From IMG/VR virus record IMGVR_UViG_2526164691_000021: a stretch of 14,170 nucleotides of DNA; one strand, written 5' to 3'. The stretch is from a virus (Duplodnaviria > Heunggongvirae > Uroviricota > Caudoviricetes). Positions 5,882 to 11,723 of the stretch are shown in pieces; position 1 is the first letter of the stretch; every line of letters starts with the position of its first letter. The translations under genes and the position numbers were made by a program. Under the pieces are notes generated by a model. The model made no database searches. It had not been told where the DNA came from and was given only the letters and a program-made list of their open reading frames with translations.

Positions 5882-6175
5882 TCAGTCATTACTGATAGCG
5901 CCATAGCGTGAGCGGTAATTACGCAGGCGCGGGTCAATTTCAGGGAAGTGGGTATATGTGGCTTTGCGGAATGGTCGGATTGATGTCTGGTAAATTCGCT
6001 CGCGTTCTTCTTTCTCTGCAAGCCATATACAATGGCGAAATTCCTTTTCCTCTTTCGTTTCCTGCGGTAGCGACATTATCCGATCGTAGTTTTTTCTGAA
6101 TTTATCCAGCACCTCCGATACGGAATTGCCGGAACAGCGGCGCGCGTCATCCGCACCATACAGAGGCGCTGGCAT
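5882..6175 (-). CDS. Hypothetical protein, 97 aa; position and size are compatible with a P22 Abc2-like anti-RecBCD protein (speculative)
   Basis: ATG at 6175 with AAGGA SD; lies downstream of the Erf/SSB pair; Abc2 assignment rests on size and synteny only. Confidence 0.5.
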
Positions 6176-6198
6176 AATTAAATCCTTATTTTTCTAAA

Positions 6199-6582
6199 TC
6201 AGAATGGGATGGAATCGTCGTATACAGGAGTGTTCTGCTGGTTACTACTTTGCTGCTGCGGGCCATTTCCTGAAGCTGCAAATCCAATCTTTGCATTCAG
6301 TAATTCAAGAGTGATTGATTGACCATTTTGCCCCTGATAAACATCAACCCTGATGTTTTCTCCGGTAATTTCCACAATGCCACCTTCAACAAGAACACTA
6401 CGGTAGTAATCCGCTTGCGCTCCCGGCTTGGCAAATACAACGGCGCTGTAGTTTGTCCATTCTTTCTTTTTTGTCTGGCGATCGTAATACTGAACGCCAG
6501 CACGGATGTTGAATCCGATATTTTCCCCGGTCTGAAACTCTCTTGCGGGCTTGTTTAGTCTTACAGTAATCGAATGTGCCAT
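6199..6582 (-). CDS. SSB-like single-stranded DNA-binding protein, 127 aa
   Basis: C-terminal acidic tail …YDDSIPF resembles the SSB protein-interaction tail DDDIPF; start placed at ATG 6582 (MAHSITV…), overlapping the Erf stop (TAATG), with AAGGAG upstream. Confidence 0.55.
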   Translation of the reverse strand: MAHSITVRLNKPAREFQTGENIGFNIRAGVQYYDRQTKKKEWTNYSAVVFAKPGAQADYYRSVLVEGGIVEITGENIRVDVYQGQNGQSITLELLNAKIGFAASGNGPQQQSSNQQNTPVYDDSIPF

Positions 6583-7187
6583 TAAGCAGCAGCTCCTTCT
6601 AATTCGTCTCGTCTGATGTTGTAAACGTCCTGCGCTTTGTGCTGCTCCGGTGTACCTTCGAGCATCTTCCACGCTTTGGCGAACGCCTGTTTAAGCTCTT
6701 CTACGGTGTTTTTCTGCATTGCTGCGTCAGTGAATGCTTTTAGAACCTGTTCAGGTGTAGGTGATGGTTTTGATTGCTTTGCTGCTGCGTTCTGCTGATG
6801 TTTATGCTCGTCGGTATCTGCATCTTTCGCATCATCAATGCCGAATAAACCATTGAGGCAATACTTGCGTGCATAAGAGCTTGTAGCTCCCGTAACTTGT
6901 GCAGAATCCATTCCTTTCTTGCTTTCTTCCTCTCGTGCAAGAGCGGTTGCCGTATGACTGTTTTCGCCATCGGTAATAGTTGCCGTGGCTTTCACATAAT
7001 ACCGATCACCAATCAACACAACTTCATCGCTGATTGATAAAAACAGGCCATTCAGTAACGGCTTAACGCCTTCAAGAATATCTTCGCAGCTTCTGTATTT
7101 ATATTTGCCGAATGAGTTGTACTGATTCTTTGGCGCGTTCAGATTCTCCTGAATAGCTGCCAGTCTTGCGTAAAATTCTTTGCTCAT
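6582..7187 (-). CDS. erf: Erf-family single-strand annealing protein (P22 Erf-like), 201 aa
   Basis: MSKEFYARLAAIQENLNAPKNQYNSFGKYKYRSCEDILEGVKPL… and the SSYARKYCLNGLFGIDD motif match the ERF family / P22 Erf as I recall it; ATG at 7187 chosen over the TTG at 7217. Confidence 0.65.
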   Translation of the reverse strand: MSKEFYARLAAIQENLNAPKNQYNSFGKYKYRSCEDILEGVKPLLNGLFLSISDEVVLIGDRYYVKATATITDGENSHTATALAREEESKKGMDSAQVTGATSSYARKYCLNGLFGIDDAKDADTDEHKHQQNAAAKQSKPSPTPEQVLKAFTDAAMQKNTVEELKQAFAKAWKMLEGTPEQHKAQDVYNIRRDELEGAAA

Positions 7188-7197
7188 ATGATTGTTC

Positions 7198-7368
7198 TCA
7201 GAATGGACACGGCCCAAGGAAATAACGCTGATTTAATACTTCGACTCGGGACAAATTAAGGCATACCCGCATTCCTTCGCGGTCACCATTATGGCGATAC
7301 CAGAGAGCTTTCTGCGTGTACATGCGCCTCTGTAACTTGCTCTCCTTCACTGTGGTTGCAAGTGACAT
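7198..7368 (-). CDS. Small hypothetical protein, 56 aa (MSLATTVKESKLQRRMYTQKALWYRHNGDREGMRVCLNLSEVEVLNQRYFLGPCPF); position corresponds to P22 arf
   Basis: Hand-translated; near-perfect SD (GAAGGAGATATTC) before ATG 7368; directly upstream of erf; not in the ORF track. Confidence 0.4.
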   Translation of the reverse strand: MSLATTVKESKLQRRMYTQKALWYRHNGDREGMRVCLNLSRVEVLNQRYFLGPCPF

Positions 7369-7443
7369 GAATATCTCCTTCGTTACCGATTAATTCTTTC
7401 ATCTGACGAATGAATTCTTCGTCTGACCAGTTATCTGTAAAAC

Positions 7444-7596
7444 TCATTTCCTGCGATAACACGGAAGGTTGATAGCTGATTTCATCGCTTTATTTGCTTC
7501 AAGCCACATTTTTGAATCACCAATAAATCGGGCTATTACTGCCTTGTTCTGTGCAGCACGAAGCATCTGGTGATTGATGGCTATTTCATTGCGCAT
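7444..7596 (-). CDS. kil: Kil-like small protein, 50 aa (MRNEIAINHQMLRAAQNKAVIARFIGDSKMWLEANKAMKSAINLPCYRRK)
   Basis: Hand-translated; …IARFIGDSKMW… resembles the lambda Kil core (…IATFIGDEKMF…) from memory; position between the CIII-like ORF and the recombination genes matches lambda synteny; SD GAGG. Confidence 0.4.
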   Translation of the reverse strand: MRNEIAINHQMLRAAQNKAVIARFIGDSKMWLEANKAMKSAINLPCYRRK

Positions 7597-7712
7597 AATA
7601 AGACCTCAACTCTTTTCCATCCGTCACGTAATTTACGGGTGATTCGTTCAAGTAAAGATTCATTTAATTGGAAGGCACCCATGCGAGCGCCTCCCGCGAT
7701 TGCGTAAATCAT
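7581..7712 (-). CDS. cIII: CIII-like protein, 43 aa (MIYAIAGGARMGAFQLNESLLERITRKLRDGWKRVEVLYCAMK)
   Basis: Hand-translated; contains the ESLLERITRKLRDGWKR helix that I recall as the conserved core of lambda/HK022 CIII; AAGGA SD before ATG 7712; the C-terminus differs from lambda CIII and is shorter. Confidence 0.5.
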   Translation of the reverse strand: MIYAIAGGARMGAFQLNESLLERITRKLRDGWKRVEVLLCAMK

Positions 7713-7736
7713 GGGTGGTTCCTTATGTTGGTTTTA

Positions 7737-8597
7737 TTAGTAGGTTATTTTTGTTGCGAATAATTCGCCTTTTACGATGGCTGTTATGATATTTTTAGCA
7801 ACATCTTCTGATGCGCCAACCTTGATAAGGTCAGCAAGTATTTTGTTATTTACTTCTTTCCGGTGAGCTTTATCCTTTGCTCTACGCTCTTCTTCGTCCT
7901 TGATTCTTTTTTCTTCTGCTATTCTGGCTTGCTCTTTTGCTTCAGCCTCGCGCAGGATTCGTTCTGCCTCCTCCTGTGCTTTACGGCGTTCTGCTTCAAT
8001 TGCCGCATGCTTTTCTCTTTCAGCTCGTTCTGCTGCCTCTTTTGCTTCGCGCTGTGCTCGTTGCTCGGCTTCAATGCGTTCACGCTCTGCACGTTCCTCT
8101 GCGGCCTTAGCTTCTGCTTCTCGCCTTGCTGCTGCTTCAATTTCGGCTTTTGCCTTTGCTTCGGCTTCAGCTCTGGCTTTCTCTTCAGCTTCTCTTTTTA
8201 AGCGTTCTTCATGCTCTCGCTTTTCCTGCTCCGCTTTGAGTCTTGCCTCTTCTCTTTGGCGGTCAAATTCGCGATCCATCAAAATCGCTATTTCATGGTC
8301 AGACTCAATTTGCTTTGCGAGAGCTTCAGCTGCTGCCTTAGCTTCTTCTTCGGCTTTAATCCGCGCCTGTTCTTCCTCATAATCAGTAAGAGGCTGGCGC
8401 GCCTTGGCTTTCAGTTCATCAAGGCGATCGCGCACTGTCTTGCGGTTAGCATCAATTAGCTTTGGAATTTCCTTCAGTTCAGCAACAAGGTCTTTGCCAA
8501 GACCATCGAGATATGTTTTCGTCTGCGCAACTTTATACGCCAGATAAGCGATCTCCTTTCTGCCCTTTGCCGTTGTGATATCAGGCACAAAGGACAT
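7737..8597 (-). CDS. Hypothetical protein, 286 aa, with a long E/A/K/R-rich charged repeat region
   Basis: Long ORF; the central ~170 aa are EAEAKAKAE / ERAEREK-type low-complexity repeats, seen at DNA level as reiterated gcttc/gctgc units; no family recognised; weak SD at the called start. Confidence 0.55.
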   Translation of the reverse strand: MSFVPDITTAKGRKEIAYLAYKVAQTKTYLDGLGKDLVAELKEIPKLIDANRKTVRDRLDELKAKARQPLTDYEEEQARIKAEEEAKAAAEALAKQIESDHEIAILMDREFDRQREEARLKAEQEKREHEERLKREAEEKARAEAEAKAKAEIEAAARREAEAKAAEERAERERIEAEQRAQREAKEAAERAEREKHAAIEAERRKAQEEAERILREAEAKEQARIAEEKRIKDEEERRAKDKAHRKEVNNKILADLIKVGASEDVAKNIITAIVKGELFATKITY

Positions 8598-8715
8598 AAC
8601 TTCACGTTCAACCTTTTGAAGAATTTCTTCAATCTGGTCGGCAGACTAAATTACAGTCATTGCATTTGCTTTTTCAATAACAACTAAATCTGTTACTTCA
8701 CTCATATATCCTCCG

Positions 8716-8746
8716 TCAAAAAAATTGCCCTCACACTGGAGGGCAA
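8716..8746 (-). terminator. Intrinsic terminator-like hairpin on the leftward transcript (tL1-like position)
   Basis: 8-bp stem TTGCCCTC / GAGGGCAA (8725-8732 / 8739-8746) with 6-nt loop, followed on the - strand by a U7 tract (complement of 8716-8724). Confidence 0.45.
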
Positions 8747-8967
8747 AGAAGATTTCCAATAATCAGAACAAGTCGGCTCCTGTTTAGTTACGAGCGACAT
8801 TGCTCCGTGTATTCACTCGTTGGAATGAATACACAGTGCAGTGTTTATTCGTATGCCTGTCTTTTAACCACATCAGGCTCGGTGGTTCTCGTGTACCCCT
8901 ACAGCGAGAAATCGGATAAACTCTATTCACCCCTACAGAGAGAATGATGGAGATTCTGGATTTGCCC

Positions 8968-9873
8968 CTATATTTCCAGACACCTGTTATCACTTAACCC
9001 ATTACTGGCTTGCTGCCGTAGATATTCCCGTGGCGAGCGATAACCCAGTGCACTATGCGGATGCCATTCGTTATAATGCTCGAACGCCTCTGCAAGGTTC
9101 TTTGCTGCCGTTAACCCGTCTGGTTTGGGCATGACACTGATGTAGTCACGCTTTATCGTTTTCACGAAGCTCTCTGCTATGCCGTTACTCTCCGGACTCC
9201 GCACCGCCGTGCTCTTCGGTTCAAGCCCCAACATCCGGGCAAACTGCCGTGTTTCATTAGCCCGGTAGCATGAACCATTATCCGTCAGCCACTCTACTGG
9301 AGACGCCGGAAGCTCGTTGCCGAAGCGGCGTTCCACCGCTCCCAGCATGACGTCCTGTACTGTTTCACTGTTGAAGCCGCCCGTAGTGACCGCCCAGTGC
9401 AGTGCCTCACGGTCACAGCAGTCCAGCGCGAACGTGACTCGCAGTTTTTCTCCGTTATCACAGCGGAACTCGAACCCGTCAGAGCACCATCGCTGATTAC
9501 TTTCTTTCACAGCCACTCTGCCTGTATGTGCCCGTTTCGATGGCGGTACAGCAGGTTTTCGCTCAAGCAACAGCGCATTCTGGCGCATGATCCGGTAAAC
9601 ACGTTTGGCATTGATCGCAGGCATACCATCAAGTTCTGCCTGTCTGCGAAGCAGCGCCCATACCCGACGATAACCATACGTGGGCAGCTCTCCGATAACA
9701 TGGTGTATACGGAGAAGCACATCCGTATCATCAGTGTGACGACTGCGGCGGCCATCCATCCAGTCATCGGTTCGTCTGAGAATGACGTGCAACTGCGCAC
9801 GCGACACCCGGAGACAACGGCTGACTAAGCTTACTCCCCATCCCCGGGCAATAAGGGCGCGTGCGCTATCCAC
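8968..9873 (-). CDS. insD: IS2 transposase OrfB (InsD), normally made as an InsCD fusion by -1 frameshift
   Basis: 301-aa ORF with IS3-family DDE transposase sequence matching IS2 InsD; overlaps the insC 3' end in the -1 frame. Confidence 0.9.
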
Positions 9874-10196
9874 TTTTTTGCCCGTCCATATTCAACGGCT
9901 TCTTTGAGGAGTTCATTTTCCATCGTTTTCTTGCCGAGCAGGCGCTGGAGTTCTTTAATCTGCTTCATGGCGGCAGCAAGTTCAGAGGCAGGAACAACCT
10001 GTTCTCCGGCGGCGACAGCAGTAAGACTTCCTTCCTGGTATTGCTTACGCCAGAGAAATAACTGGCTGGCTGCTACACCATGTTGCCGGGCAACGAGGGA
10101 GACCGTCATCCCTGGTTCAAAGCTCTGCTGAACAATTGCGATCTTTTCCTGTGTGGTACGCCGTCTGCGTTTCTCCGGTCCTAAGACATCAATCAT
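9831..10196 (-). CDS. insC: IS2 OrfA (InsC), HTH regulatory / transposase N-terminal protein
   Basis: 121 aa starting [41 protein letters not shown]…; the track ORF extends 15 codons upstream, but the IS2 protein starts at the ATG at 10196. Confidence 0.9.
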
Positions 10197-10296
10197 CTGC
10201 TCTCCAATGACTAGTCTAAAAACTAGTATTAAGACTATCACTTAAATAAGTGATACTGGTTGTCTGGAGATTCAGGGGGCCAGTCTAGATTCACCG

Positions 10297-10836
10297 ATGA
10301 GTAACTGGTGGCAGGAACTATTACGTTTCTTCCTGCGTGGTCTTACGCTACAACAGTTAATTCATATGCTTATTATTTTAATTGCCTTGATAATAATCAC
10401 CCCAGCATCAATTAAAGAGTGGGTAGATATAAGGAACCCCGAAATACTTCCAGATCACTGGATGTATTACGCAATGCTTTTGTGTATCAGTTATGTTCTG
10501 AACAGGGGGATGGAGTTTATATTTCTGGCATCTTCAGACAGATATAAAAAATATCTCAGTAAGAGAGATGAGGCTAAAGTAATTGTGGAGACTGAGCGCC
10601 TATTCAATTCTCTGAGTATTCAGGAAAAAGAGGTTTTAGCATTTGCTGTTATGGCAAATAACAAAATCGTACTTAAGCACGGCGATCCGGTCGCTTTATC
10701 TCTTATGAGAAAAGGCCTTCTCCATCGCTCAGGTGTGACTTACAGCGCGTCAGGTAAAGAGAAATTTGTTATACCTGACGTCTGGTTCCATGAGTGTTAT
10801 ATGCGCTTTGCTGGTAAAGCTGATGAGCTAATTTAG
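10297..10836 (+). CDS. sieB: SieB-like superinfection-exclusion membrane protein (putative), 179 aa
   Basis: Two N-terminal hydrophobic helices (LIHMLIILIALIIITPA, WMYYAMLLCISYVL); size and position next to N, on the strand opposite the pL operon, match sieB of lambdoid/Rac prophages; family call from memory, unverified. Confidence 0.45.
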   Translation: MSNWWQELLRFFLRGLTLQQLIHMLIILIALIIITPASIKEWVDIRNPEILPDHWMYYAMLLCISYVLNRGMEFIFLASSDRYKKYLSKRDEAKVIVETERLFNSLSIQEKEVLAFAVMANNKIVLKHGDPVALSLMRKGLLHRSGVTYSASGKEKFVIPDVWFHECYMRFAGKADELI

Positions 10837-10859
10837 TTCCTCTACGGCGGGGGGGATCG

Positions 10860-11132
10860 TCACCTCGCTGTCAGTTGTTTTGATTTCCGGTAGCCTGCCG
10901 CGTAAATGGCTACGTTTGGAAGACAAGTTGAACCTTCATATTTTCTGGTCAACGTTGTCAGAGTTATAACTTCTGCTCTCATTGCTGGTTTGCGCTTGCA
11001 TTGCAAGACCACTCGTGAAGGGGTTGGCCTGTGTAGCTTGTCGGAGCTAATCGCCTCCTGACTTTGCAGGTTTGCGCGACGAGCTCTACGGCGAGAAGCT
11101 GCGGTGCCTTTAAATTCTGTTTTTCTGGACAT
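10860..11132 (-). CDS. N: N-like transcription antiterminator, 90 aa
   Basis: N-terminal arginine-rich motif (KGTAASRRRARRANLQSQ); C-terminus …IYAAGYRKSKQLTAR resembles P22 gp24 / phage 21 N from memory; ATG at 11132 with GGGAGGAA SD (the track ORF starts further upstream); lies downstream of nut-like boxA/boxB. Confidence 0.65.
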   Translation of the reverse strand: MSRKTEFKGTAASRRRARRANLQSQEAISSDKLHRPTPSRVVLQCKRKPAMRAEVITLTTLTRKYEGSTCLPNVAIYAAGYRKSKQLTAR

Positions 11133-11230
11133 AGATTCCTCCCGAATAAACTTTGGCGATGCAATCTCGAAGCTCCTCCTGAGACGGTTACTTCGGCATT
11201 GCATCCCACAGCTTATGTGGTTGGGTGATC

Positions 11231-11277
11231 TGGCTTTTCAGCCACGTAGTCGAGTGTTCGACGTTGTTTAAAGAGCC
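11231..11277 (-). promoter_or_regulatory. nutL: nutL candidate: boxA-like GGCTCTTTA and boxB-like hairpin UGGCU-GAAA-AGCCA
   Basis: On the - strand, boxA-like sequence (complement of 11268-11277) followed by the hairpin at 11231-11244 with a GAAA loop; located in the leader between the putative pL and N. Confidence 0.4.
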
Positions 11278-11322
11278 TGCCAGTCTGCTCCGTTTGGCTT
11301 ACAGCGTCCTGCTGATGAGTTG

Positions 11323-11372
11323 ACTTTATCGAAATGATAAACTGATGGCAATAGCAAAATGATAAATTGTTT
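11323..11372 (-). promoter_or_regulatory. oL/pL candidate: promoter TTGCCA-N17-TAAAGT overlapped by the dyad operator TTTATCGAAATGATAAA
   Basis: Perfect 17-bp dyad TTTATC-N5-GATAAA at 11325-11341; related AAAATGATAAATTG at 11358-11371; -35/-10-like hexamers on the - strand at 11351..11346 and 11328..11323. Confidence 0.4.
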
Positions 11373-11540
11373 GGGTTTTCAAATATCCTGTTGATTATTA
11401 TGGTTTTTTATTTGATTGCGGGAATTTATCAGAAGGAATGAAGAGACTTGAGGGGGATCAGAATTTCGTGGTTTAGAAAGTTGTATCTATCAATTTTTCA
11501 ATAAATACAATTGGTTAAGGTGTTATTAGGTGTGGGGATC

Positions 11541-11575
11541 GTGAGGCAAAGAAAACCCGGCGCTGAGGCCGGGTT
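11541..11575 (-). terminator. Intrinsic terminator at the end of the cI operon (tIMM-like)
   Basis: 8-bp GC-rich stem AACCCGGC / GCCGGGTT (11554-11561 / 11568-11575) with 6-nt loop, followed on the - strand by UUCUUUG. Confidence 0.5.
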
Positions 11576-11582
11576 CTGTCAT

Positions 11583-11723
11583 CTAACTTAAGTATCAAGC
11601 CGCTTTTTGTGAATGATTGATGTGAGCTTCAAAGTCGCGGCGTAGATTTTGAACGCGCTCTACACATCCGCGCATTTCAGCCAAAAGCTTACTAACGGCA
11701 GTATAGTCAAACGCTTTAGTCAT
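11583..11723 (-). CDS. Small hypothetical protein, 46 aa (MTKAFDYTAVSKLLAEMRGCVERVQNLRRDFEAHINHSQKAADYLS)
   Basis: Hand-translated; ATG at 11723 preceded by GAGGGG SD, 15 nt after the stop of the 120-aa gene; followed by the terminator above; not in the ORF track. Confidence 0.4.

What the first reader, a model, noticed from the sequence alone, without database searches (positions are those of the whole stretch)
8952..10292. IS2 inserted 5 bp upstream of the sieB-like start codon, inside the pL transcription path
A complete IS2 (8957-10287) is flanked by the duplicated pentamer GATTC (8952-8956 and 10288-10292). Removing it reconstructs …GATGGAGATTCACCGATG…, in which GGAG (8949-8952) is the natural SD for the sieB-like ATG at 10297. 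The insertion therefore separates that gene from its SD and its whole upstream region, and places 1.3 kb of IS DNA, transcribed in the same direction as pL, between N and the tL1-like terminator. Expression of the exclusion gene is probably abolished or rewired to an IS-derived promoter, and early-left transcription must rely on N antitermination to pass the IS.
Basis: seen in the sequence. Interest (0 to 1): 0.55.

Follow-up and report, generated by a model that had tools for sequence, protein, structure and literature searches.

The report
IS2 insertion silencing prophage sieB gene
An intact copy of the common mobile element IS2 has landed between the promoter and ribosome-binding site and the start codon of a phage-exclusion gene (sieB) in a decayed lambda-like prophage of E. 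coli, almost certainly switching that gene off; this is an ordinary event, one of at least eleven such insertions in this prophage across related strains.

Summary
Window 8957-10287 is an intact 1331-bp IS2, 97.7% identical to K-12 IS2A, with both reading frames and the frameshift site intact. It is flanked by the 5-bp duplication GATTC. The predicted empty site (...GATGGAGATTCACCGATG...) occurs exactly in related genomes. 65 E. coli genomes carry the uninterrupted region, and 3 carry this IS2.

Comparison with phage P22, whose record annotates a sieB promoter and RNA start, places the insertion in the sieB 5' untranslated region. It lies 28 nt after the start-site equivalent (8929), between the GGAG ribosome-binding site and the ATG (10297). 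That ATG aligns with the P22 sieB start. Promoter, RNA start and ribosome-binding site are therefore cut off from the gene. The IS2 end that carries an outward -35 faces away from sieB, so loss of expression is more likely than rewiring.

Two corrections. The "tL1-like" terminator is lambda tL2a, the 3' end of the LPR1 small RNA (131/132 identical). The prophage is a truncated remnant without late genes.

IS2 is transcribed in the pL direction, between N and LPR1, cIII and kil. Rho-dependent polarity relieved by N is plausible but untested. Low novelty.

The parts
8952..8956 (.). Left copy of the 5-bp target-site duplication GATTC. Its first G is the last base of the sieB GGAG ribosome-binding site (8949-8952).
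   Evidence: A single copy is present in the empty site of NZ_CP027472.
8957..10287 (-). Complete IS2 (1331 bp). IRR is at 8957-8997 and IRL at 10246-10287. The transposase is read on the minus strand.
   Evidence: 97.7% identical to K-12 IS2A, with no indels and identical termini. PGAP annotates an IS3-family transposase with programmed frameshift.
9831..10196 (-). IS2 orfA (InsA, 121 aa)
   Evidence: Identical in protein sequence to K-12 InsC1. Pfam HTH_Tnp_1.
8968..9873 (-). IS2 orfB (integrase-core/DDE domain). The A6G -1 frameshift site is at 9873-9879.
   Evidence: Pfam rve, rve_3 and HTH_21. A6G motif. 8 substitutions against K-12 InsD1, reading frame open.
10288..10292 (.). Right copy of the target-site duplication GATTC
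8892..8922 (+). sieB promoter, now cut off from the gene. The RNA-start equivalent is at 8929.
   Evidence: 31/31 identical to the promoter feature 29690-29720 of the phage P22 record, whose annotated sieB RNA start is 29727. Also conserved in lambda, VT1-Sakai and SPN9CC.
8949..8952 (+). GGAG ribosome-binding site of sieB, 8 nt before the ATG in the empty site. It is now 1.34 kb away from the ATG.
   Evidence: Read from the sequence. It aligns with GAGA in the P22 leader.
10297..10836 (+). sieB-like gene (179 aa), with an esc-like in-frame internal ATG at 10366
   Evidence: Pfam SieB PF14163, 70.5 bits. 48% identical to P22 SieB over its full length. The ATG aligns with the P22 sieB ATG and 10366 aligns with the P22 esc ATG. 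The protein is the same accession, WP_000073663.1, as in empty-site genomes.
8721..8812 (-). LPR1-like small RNA ending at the tL2a intrinsic terminator (hairpin 8725-8746, then a U-run).
   Evidence: 131/132 identical to lambda 33925-34056. LPR1 and tL2a are described in bioRxiv 10.1101/2024.10.31.621285. Terminator scan. Fold z-score -3.6. The 5' end is only approximate.
10860..11132 (-). N antiterminator gene, convergent with sieB
   Evidence: Pfam N_peptide, 110.7 bits. PGAP annotation.
11231..11276 (-). nutL-like region: boxA-like GCTCTTTAA (11268-11276) and two hairpins, GTCGA-ACAC-TCGAC at 11249-11262 and tGGCtgaaaaGCCa at 11231-11244. Which of the two is boxB was not determined.
   Evidence: Read by eye. 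Not tested further.
11323..11351 (-). pL-like promoter (TTGCCA-17-TAAAGT)
   Evidence: Promoter scan. It lies next to the block homologous to the lambda region just right of oL.

Best explanation
A functional-looking IS2 transposed into a lambda/P22-type prophage remnant integrated next to ybhC. It landed in the 5' untranslated region of the sieB (superinfection exclusion B) mRNA, 28 nt after the RNA start and between the GGAG ribosome-binding site and the ATG.

Shown: the element, its 5-bp duplication, the exact empty site in relatives, and the identity of the upstream block to the sieB promoter annotated in the P22 record.

Inferred: sieB, and the Esc-like product made from its internal start, are no longer expressed. 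Transcripts from the sieB promoter now enter 1.3 kb of IS2 antisense RNA with no ribosomes on it, which makes it a likely Rho target. Any transcript that does reach the ATG finds no ribosome-binding site within range. The IS2 end next to sieB (IRL) has no known outward promoter.

On the other strand IS2 lies in the pL operon in the sense direction, between N plus the antisense of sieB and LPR1/tL2a, a TolA-like pseudogene, cIII, kil and erf. It probably adds Rho-dependent polarity that N-modified polymerase can override.

The event is one of at least eleven independent IS insertions in the pL side of this decaying prophage, and is best read as neutral decay.
For: - IS2 anatomy and the target duplication.
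- The empty site is exact in NZ_CP027472. 65 genomes are uninterrupted against 3 with the IS2.
- The P22 record annotates the sieB promoter at 29690-29720, the RNA start at 29727, the sieB ATG at 29758 and the esc ATG at 29830.
- In the alignment, window 8892-8922 is identical to that promoter, and the ATGs at 10297 and 10366 align with the P22 sieB and esc starts.
- SieB family membership.
- After insertion the sequence before the ATG is ...GGGGGCCAGTCTAGATTCACCGATG, with no purine-rich motif within 5-10 nt.
- The outward -35 of IS3-family elements, including IS2, is in IRR (PMC9330008; PMC3299598). Here IRR is at 8957, facing away from sieB.
- There is no promoter-like site on the + strand between 9160 and 10297.
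- IS2 carries Rho-dependent terminators in galEP3 (PMC8141534), and no intrinsic terminator motif was found inside it.
- The prophage is truncated in Q.
- Eleven IS events were mapped in this prophage.
Against: - There are no expression data of any kind.
- The promoter scan also fails to call the sieB promoter itself, so the absence of a predicted outward promoter at IRL is weak evidence.
- Readthrough from the sieB promoter across IS2 cannot be excluded. Non-canonical initiation at 10297, or initiation at the internal esc-like ATG (which lacks a strong ribosome-binding site in P22 too), also cannot be excluded.
- The SieB protein is still identical to that of empty-site strains. That fits a recent event, but also fits continued function.
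- I do not know which orientation of IS2 carries the Rho-dependent terminators relative to the pL direction.
Confidence: 0.85

Rival explanations
1. Rewiring rather than silencing. sieB or its Esc-like product is still made, driven by an IS2-borne outward promoter, a fusion promoter, or readthrough from the sieB promoter across IS2.
For: IS2 is known to create fusion promoters (ampC, acrEF, neoR; PMC9330008). No intrinsic terminator motif lies on the + strand within IS2. The SieB coding sequence is undamaged.
Against: The outward -35 lies in IRR, which faces the other way. The IRL-proximal TTGTCT (10260-10265) has no usable -10 at 16-18 nt, only GTCTAG or TCTAGA by eye. The promoter scan finds nothing there. 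The ribosome-binding site is lost whatever the promoter. A 1.3-kb untranslated antisense RNA is a typical Rho substrate (established knowledge).
Confidence: 0.1
2. Adaptive loss. Insertions into sieB are selected, for example because SieB abortive exclusion is costly or hinders productive superinfection by other lambdoid or Stx phages. On this view the IS2 allele is one of several convergent knock-outs.
For: Four of 11 independent IS events in the 7.6-kb segment fall in the sieB 5' UTR or coding sequence: IS2 at 8952-8956, IS600 with a deletion at about 10400, IS10 at 10590-10599, and an IS3-family element at 10688-10697. A fifth is 150 bp upstream. Binomial p = 0.0067 against the whole segment.
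Against: The region was chosen after seeing the data. Against the pL side only, where all 11 events lie, p is about 0.05 (my estimate from the counts). A second cluster of three IS600 insertions lies between erf and kil, which shows general IS bombardment. sieB is slightly more AT-rich than the segment as a whole (39.6% against 44.0% GC), which may favour insertion. Only 60 of the 68 genomes were inspected.
Confidence: 0.1
3. The main functional consequence is on the other strand. IS2 acts as a polar block in the pL operon and reduces LPR1, cIII, kil and erf expression on derepression, or conversely pL readthrough drives the IS2 transposase during SOS induction.
For: IS2 lies between N and the LPR1/tL2a block in the pL direction, sense to the transposase. 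IS2 carries Rho-dependent terminators. LPR1 is made only when the early-left operon is active.
Against: N, a nutL-like site and pL look intact, and N-modified polymerase overrides Rho-dependent and intrinsic terminators (established knowledge). The prophage cannot complete a lytic cycle in any case. There are no data on the orientation dependence of IS2 polarity here.
Confidence: 0.25
4. Assembly artefact: an IS2 copy wrongly placed in a repeat-rich genome.
For: The carrier genomes hold many IS2 copies: 15-18 places for the 3-kb query.
Against: Three separately assembled complete genomes carry the identical junctions. There is a perfect 5-bp duplication, and the excision product is exact in relatives.
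Confidence: 0.01

Closest known systems
IS2 (IS3 family), e.g. IS2A of E. coli K-12 MG1655
   Same: 1331 bp, identical termini, 5-bp target duplication, orfA and orfB with an A6G frameshift site, InsA identical, 97.7% nucleotide identity.
   Different: 31 substitutions and 8 InsB amino-acid changes, so this is an isoform. PGAP names it only 'IS3 family transposase'.
galEP3 (gal3) IS2 insertion in the gal operon leader
   Same: IS2 sits in the untranslated leader of a gene or operon, separating the promoter from the coding sequence. Polarity is through Rho-dependent terminators inside IS2 (PMC8141534). From my own knowledge, lambda N relieves this polarity.
   Different: Here the element disrupts two overlapping convergent transcription units at once: the sieB leader on one strand and the pL operon on the other. 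The relative orientation in galEP3 was not checked.
sieB/esc locus of Salmonella phage P22 (and sieB of lambda)
   Same: The gene is convergent with the N-type antiterminator. The promoter block is identical, the RNA-start context and start codon are aligned, the internal esc start is conserved, and the protein is 48% identical.
   Different: 179 aa against 192 aa. There is no detectable BLASTP similarity to lambda SieB, although the 85-bp promoter block is shared with lambda. No ral gene lies between LPR1 and sieB. The gene is interrupted from its leader by IS2.
Lambda LPR1 small RNA / tL2a terminator
   Same: 131/132 identity, a GC-rich hairpin plus U-run, and a position in the early-left operon upstream of the ea10-equivalent gene.
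   Different: In lambda ral and orf28 lie between LPR1 and sieB. Here only 3 bp separate the two conserved blocks, and IS2 lies about 150 bp upstream in the pL direction.
IS-mediated decay of prophages in EHEC (IS629 and IS600 in O157 and O26; from my own knowledge)
   Same: Many independent IS insertions and an IS-adjacent deletion in one defective prophage across related strains.
   Different: Nothing essential. This locus is another example.

Membership tests
IS2 (IS3 family insertion sequence) | Length about 1331 bp, with imperfect terminal inverted repeats of 41 and 42 bp ending TGGA... and ...TCTA | tested here: met
   1331 bp. The first 30 nt of IRL and the last 26 nt of IRR are identical to K-12 IS2A. 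IR lengths are taken from PMC3299598.
IS2 (IS3 family insertion sequence) | 5-bp target-site duplication | tested here: met
   GATTC is present on both sides and once in the empty site.
IS2 (IS3 family insertion sequence) | Two overlapping ORFs (HTH OrfA; DDE/rve OrfB) with an A6G -1 frameshift site | tested here: met
   Pfam HTH_Tnp_1 and rve/rve_3. A6G at 9873-9879. Both ORFs are open.
IS2 (IS3 family insertion sequence) | At least 95% nucleotide identity to the reference element (the usual ISfinder rule for the same IS, from my own knowledge) | tested here: met
   97.7% identity to IS2A with no indels.
IS2 (IS3 family insertion sequence) | Transposition activity | not testable with these tools
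   Indirect only: 15-18 matching places in carrier genomes against 4-7 in empty-site genomes.
SieB superinfection exclusion protein (Pfam PF14163) | Profile match above the curated cut-off | tested here: met
   70.5 bits against a cut-off of 26.
SieB superinfection exclusion protein (Pfam PF14163) | Full-length homology to P22 SieB, the member whose record carries the annotated promoter, RNA start and esc features | tested here: met
   48% identity, 73% positives, no gaps over 178 aa, E = 3e-56.
SieB superinfection exclusion protein (Pfam PF14163) | Locus organisation: convergent with the N-type antiterminator, its own promoter upstream, and an internal in-frame esc start | tested here: met
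   Gene order. Promoter 31/31 identical to the P22 feature, with the sieB and esc ATGs aligned.
SieB superinfection exclusion protein (Pfam PF14163) | Abortive exclusion of superinfecting lambdoid phages | not testable with these tools
   Needs a phage assay.
LPR1 sRNA / tL2a terminator of lambda | Sequence identity to lambda LPR1, with a 3' GC-rich hairpin plus poly-U | tested here: met
   131/132 identity. Hairpin of 8 pairs followed by TTTTTTT. Fold. Description in the paper.
LPR1 sRNA / tL2a terminator of lambda | Hfq-bound RNA of about 88 and 68 nt made during lytic growth | not testable with these tools
   No Rfam family matched in 8400-11600. Needs a northern blot.
   The hairpin matches lambda 33925-33951, between ea10 and ral, which the LPR1 paper calls tL2a. 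The position of tL1 itself is from my own memory.

The most novel reading that the evidence does not exclude
sieB may be a recurrent, selected target of IS-mediated knock-out in O26/O111/O103-type E. coli. Four of eleven independent IS events in this prophage hit its leader or coding sequence. Losing SieB abortive exclusion might be advantageous, for example by allowing productive superinfection by, or exchange with, other lambdoid or Stx phages. A second untested possibility is that the sense orientation of IS2 within the pL operon couples IS2 transposase expression to SOS derepression of the prophage.
Probability: 0.1. Interest if true: 0.4.

Novelty: already known. Interest (0 to 1): 0.15.

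Why it matters
The allele is a clean natural promoter-disconnect mutation of sieB. It also marks a small sublineage: 3 of 5426 complete E. coli genomes. It could serve as a ready-made sieB-off control for exclusion assays, and as a natural test of IS2 polarity and N antitermination upstream of the recently described LPR1 small RNA. Beyond that it illustrates routine IS-driven decay of a defective prophage and raises no new mechanistic question.

Tried and rejected
1. sieB as an IS hot spot. I mapped 11 independent IS insertions in the 7.6-kb segment. Four of the 11 lie in sieB, giving p = 0.0067 against the whole segment but only about 0.05 against the pL side, where all events lie. The region was chosen post hoc, and a second cluster sits between erf and kil. 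Enrichment is not established.

2. An IS-derived promoter for sieB. The outward -35 is in IRR, which faces away. The scan finds nothing near IRL. By eye, IRR plus its flank gives only a poor -10 (AATCTC) for a fusion promoter toward tL2a.

3. Similarity to lambda SieB. BLASTP finds none. The relationship is with P22-type SieB, although the promoter block is shared with lambda.

4. Rfam search of 8400-11600. Nothing relevant; only a sub-threshold sroD hit at the window edge.

5. The primary P22/lambda sieB paper (Ranade and Poteete, J Bacteriol 1993) is not held in the library. Promoter and RNA-start coordinates were taken from the P22 RefSeq annotation instead. The position of the sas antisense RNA could not be established, so the effect of IS2 on a sas equivalent is left open.

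6. The window differs from DEC9B by a single 1-bp gap over 14.17 kb. I did not pursue this.

Full report
**Observation.** The pentamer GATTC occurs at 8952-8956 and 10288-10292, and brackets exactly 1331 bp. The element ends in TGGATTTGCCCC... at 8957 and ...GGGGGCCAGTCTA at 10287. Compared with IS2A of E. coli K-12 it has the same length and identical termini. There are 31 substitutions and no indels (97.7% identity). InsA is identical and InsB is open with 8 substitutions. Pfam finds HTH_Tnp_1 in orfA and rve/rve_3 in orfB. The A6G frameshift motif is at 9873-9879. The transposase genes read on the minus strand, so IRL (10246-10287) abuts sieB and IRR (8957-8997) faces the other way.

**Empty site and distribution.** Joining 300 nt from each flank with one GATTC copy gives a sequence found exactly in NZ_CP027472 (...GATGGAGATTCACCGATGAGT...). 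Among 5426 complete E. coli genomes, 65 carry the uninterrupted region in that search. Three carry the IS2 at this place, all 100% identical over 3 kb: DEC9B, F2_407_2_2 and 7_33_46A. The window matches DEC9B apart from one 1-bp gap. The only imprecision is that the IS end is 9 nt, not 5, from the ATG.

**Context.** The prophage sits next to ybhC. It runs int, xis ... abc2, erf, kil, cIII, a TolA-like pseudogene, [IS2], sieB (+), N (-), two small ORFs, a cI-like repressor, cro, cII, O, P, ren and the nin genes. It ends in a truncated Q gene next to lpxR. It is therefore a defective remnant without lysis or structural genes. N is intact (Pfam N_peptide, 110.7 bits). A pL-like promoter lies at 11351-11323. 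A boxA-like GCTCTTTAA and two hairpins lie between pL and N.

**What the IS interrupts on the plus strand.** The 179-aa ORF is a SieB protein: PF14163 at 70.5 bits, and 48% identity to P22 SieB over its whole length. It shows no BLASTP similarity to lambda SieB.
- The P22 RefSeq record annotates the sieB promoter (29690-29720), the sieB RNA start (29727), the sieB ATG (29758) and the in-frame esc ATG (29830).
- In an alignment of P22, lambda, VT1-Sakai, SPN9CC and the reconstructed empty site, window 8892-8922 is identical to the P22 promoter.
- The RNA-start equivalent is 8929. The ATG at 10297 aligns with the P22 sieB ATG, and the ATG at 10366 aligns with esc.
- The 85-bp block 8854-8938 is also 94% identical to lambda 34396-34480, immediately upstream of lambda sieB.

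The natural leader is therefore 32 nt long (8929-8956 plus ACCG). IS2 sits at +28, between GGAG (8949-8952) and the ATG. After insertion the ATG is preceded by ...GGGGGCCAGTCTAGATTCACCG, with no ribosome-binding motif in range.

**Likely consequence for sieB (inferred).** Transcripts from the sieB promoter now enter IS2 antisense to the transposase, as 1.3 kb of untranslated RNA. Even full readthrough would meet an ATG without a ribosome-binding site. For IS3-family elements, including IS2, the outward -35 that builds fusion promoters is in IRR (PMC9330008; the Pjunc architecture is in PMC3299598). Here IRR points away from sieB. The consensus scan finds no promoter-like site on the + strand near IRL, although the same scan also misses the weak sieB promoter. 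I conclude that silencing of SieB and of the Esc-like product is much more likely than rewiring. The coding sequence is still identical to that of empty-site strains (WP_000073663.1), so the event is probably recent.

**What the IS interrupts on the minus strand.** IS2 lies in the pL operon in the sense orientation, after N and the antisense of sieB.

That block is 131/132 identical to lambda 33925-34056, between ea10 and ral. A 2024 preprint identifies this as the LPR1 small RNA, whose 3' end is terminator tL2a. LPR1 is made only when the early-left operon is active, and it up-regulates dnaN (bioRxiv 10.1101/2024.10.31.621285). The window's copy folds into a 5' hairpin, an unpaired AU-rich stretch and the terminator hairpin (z = -3.6).

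So the IS lies between pL/N and LPR1, cIII, kil and erf. IS2 is known to carry Rho-dependent terminators, as in the galEP3 reporter (PMC8141534). No intrinsic terminator motif was found inside it. N-modified polymerase should pass it, as it must already pass tL2a.

**Is sieB a special target?** The first search also showed other IS elements nearby, so I mapped insertions in a 7.6-kb segment (window 5300-14300 without the IS2) in 60 of the 68 genomes that carry it. There are eleven independent events:
- IS600 in abc2 (5975-5983)
- IS600 in erf (6909-6913)
- three IS600 insertions between erf and kil (7253-7274, 7375-7377, 7414-7418)
- IS600 in the TolA-like pseudogene (8154-8158)
- IS600 at 8799-8801
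- this IS2
- IS600 at about 10400, with a deletion reaching gene P
- IS10/ISVsa5 at 10590-10599
- a 1.3-kb IS3-family element at 10688-10697

Four of the eleven lie in the sieB leader or coding sequence. That gives a binomial p of 0.0067 against the whole segment, but only about 0.05 against the pL side, where all the events lie, and the test is post hoc. None falls in the N-pL-cI-cro-cII side. I read this as general IS bombardment of the dispensable arm of a dead prophage. A weak, unproven hint of excess in sieB remains.

**Comparison and novelty.** Every component is known and already annotated by PGAP: IS2, P22-type sieB/esc, N/nutL/pL, and LPR1/tL2a. The allele is analogous to the classic galEP3 IS2 leader insertion. 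Its value is practical. It is a natural sieB-off allele, a lineage marker, and a natural construct for testing IS2 polarity upstream of LPR1. Interest is low (0.15).

Noticed in passing
window 8719-8850 (minus strand; RNA about 8812 to 8721): A near-perfect copy (131/132) of the lambda LPR1 small RNA and tL2a terminator block. The same block matches in well over a thousand of the 2290 E. coli genomes hit by the empty-site query. Rfam has no family for it.
   Followed up: partly
window 5975-10697 (mapped in loci L003, L004, L009-L016): Eleven independent IS insertions (IS600 x8, IS2, IS10/ISVsa5 and a 1.3-kb IS3-family element) lie in the pL arm of this prophage across 68 genomes. None lies in the N-pL-cI-cro-cII arm. 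Four are in sieB and three are in the roughly 170-bp stretch between erf and kil.
   Followed up: partly
L009 (strain 10205), about window 10400 onward: An IS600 inside sieB is joined directly to the 3' part of replication gene P. This is an IS-adjacent deletion that removes N, the immunity region, O and part of P.
   Followed up: partly
whole genomes of DEC9B, F2_407_2_2 and 7_33_46A: The three IS2-bearing genomes show 15-18 matching places for the 3-kb query, against 4-7 in empty-site genomes. This suggests an IS2 copy-number expansion in that sublineage.
   Followed up: no
window 8851-8853 versus lambda 34057-34395: The ral/orf28 segment of lambda is absent. The LPR1 block and the sieB-promoter block are separated by only 3 bp here, as in VT1-Sakai. 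Other prophages keep ral between them.
   Followed up: partly
window 8895-8910 and 8929-8944: The direct repeat ACCCCTACAG(C/A)GAGAA brackets the sieB -10 region, and the second copy begins at the RNA-start equivalent. It is conserved in P22, VT1-Sakai and SPN9CC, and partly in lambda. Its function is unknown; it could be a regulator site or part of the sas-complementary region.
   Followed up: no
window 8808-8836: A 9-bp inverted repeat, GTGTATTCA-N10-TGAATACAC, lies at the 5' edge of the LPR1-like block. It is conserved with lambda. It could be an RNA processing or structure element.
   Followed up: no
window 7737-8705 (minus strand): The TolA-like coiled-coil gene that occupies the ea10 position has an internal stop in every genome inspected, and is annotated as a pseudogene.
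   Followed up: no
window 8945-8956 plus 10293-10299 (empty-site reconstruction): In the uninterrupted leader, a 6-codon upstream ORF (ATGATGGAGATTCACCGATGA) ends in a TGA that overlaps the sieB ATG. It is not conserved in P22, and IS2 splits it.
   Followed up: no
L017 (strain 03_3013), replication gene O region: A 39-bp length difference inside the O-like replication gene relative to other strains, probably iteron copy-number variation.
   Followed up: no
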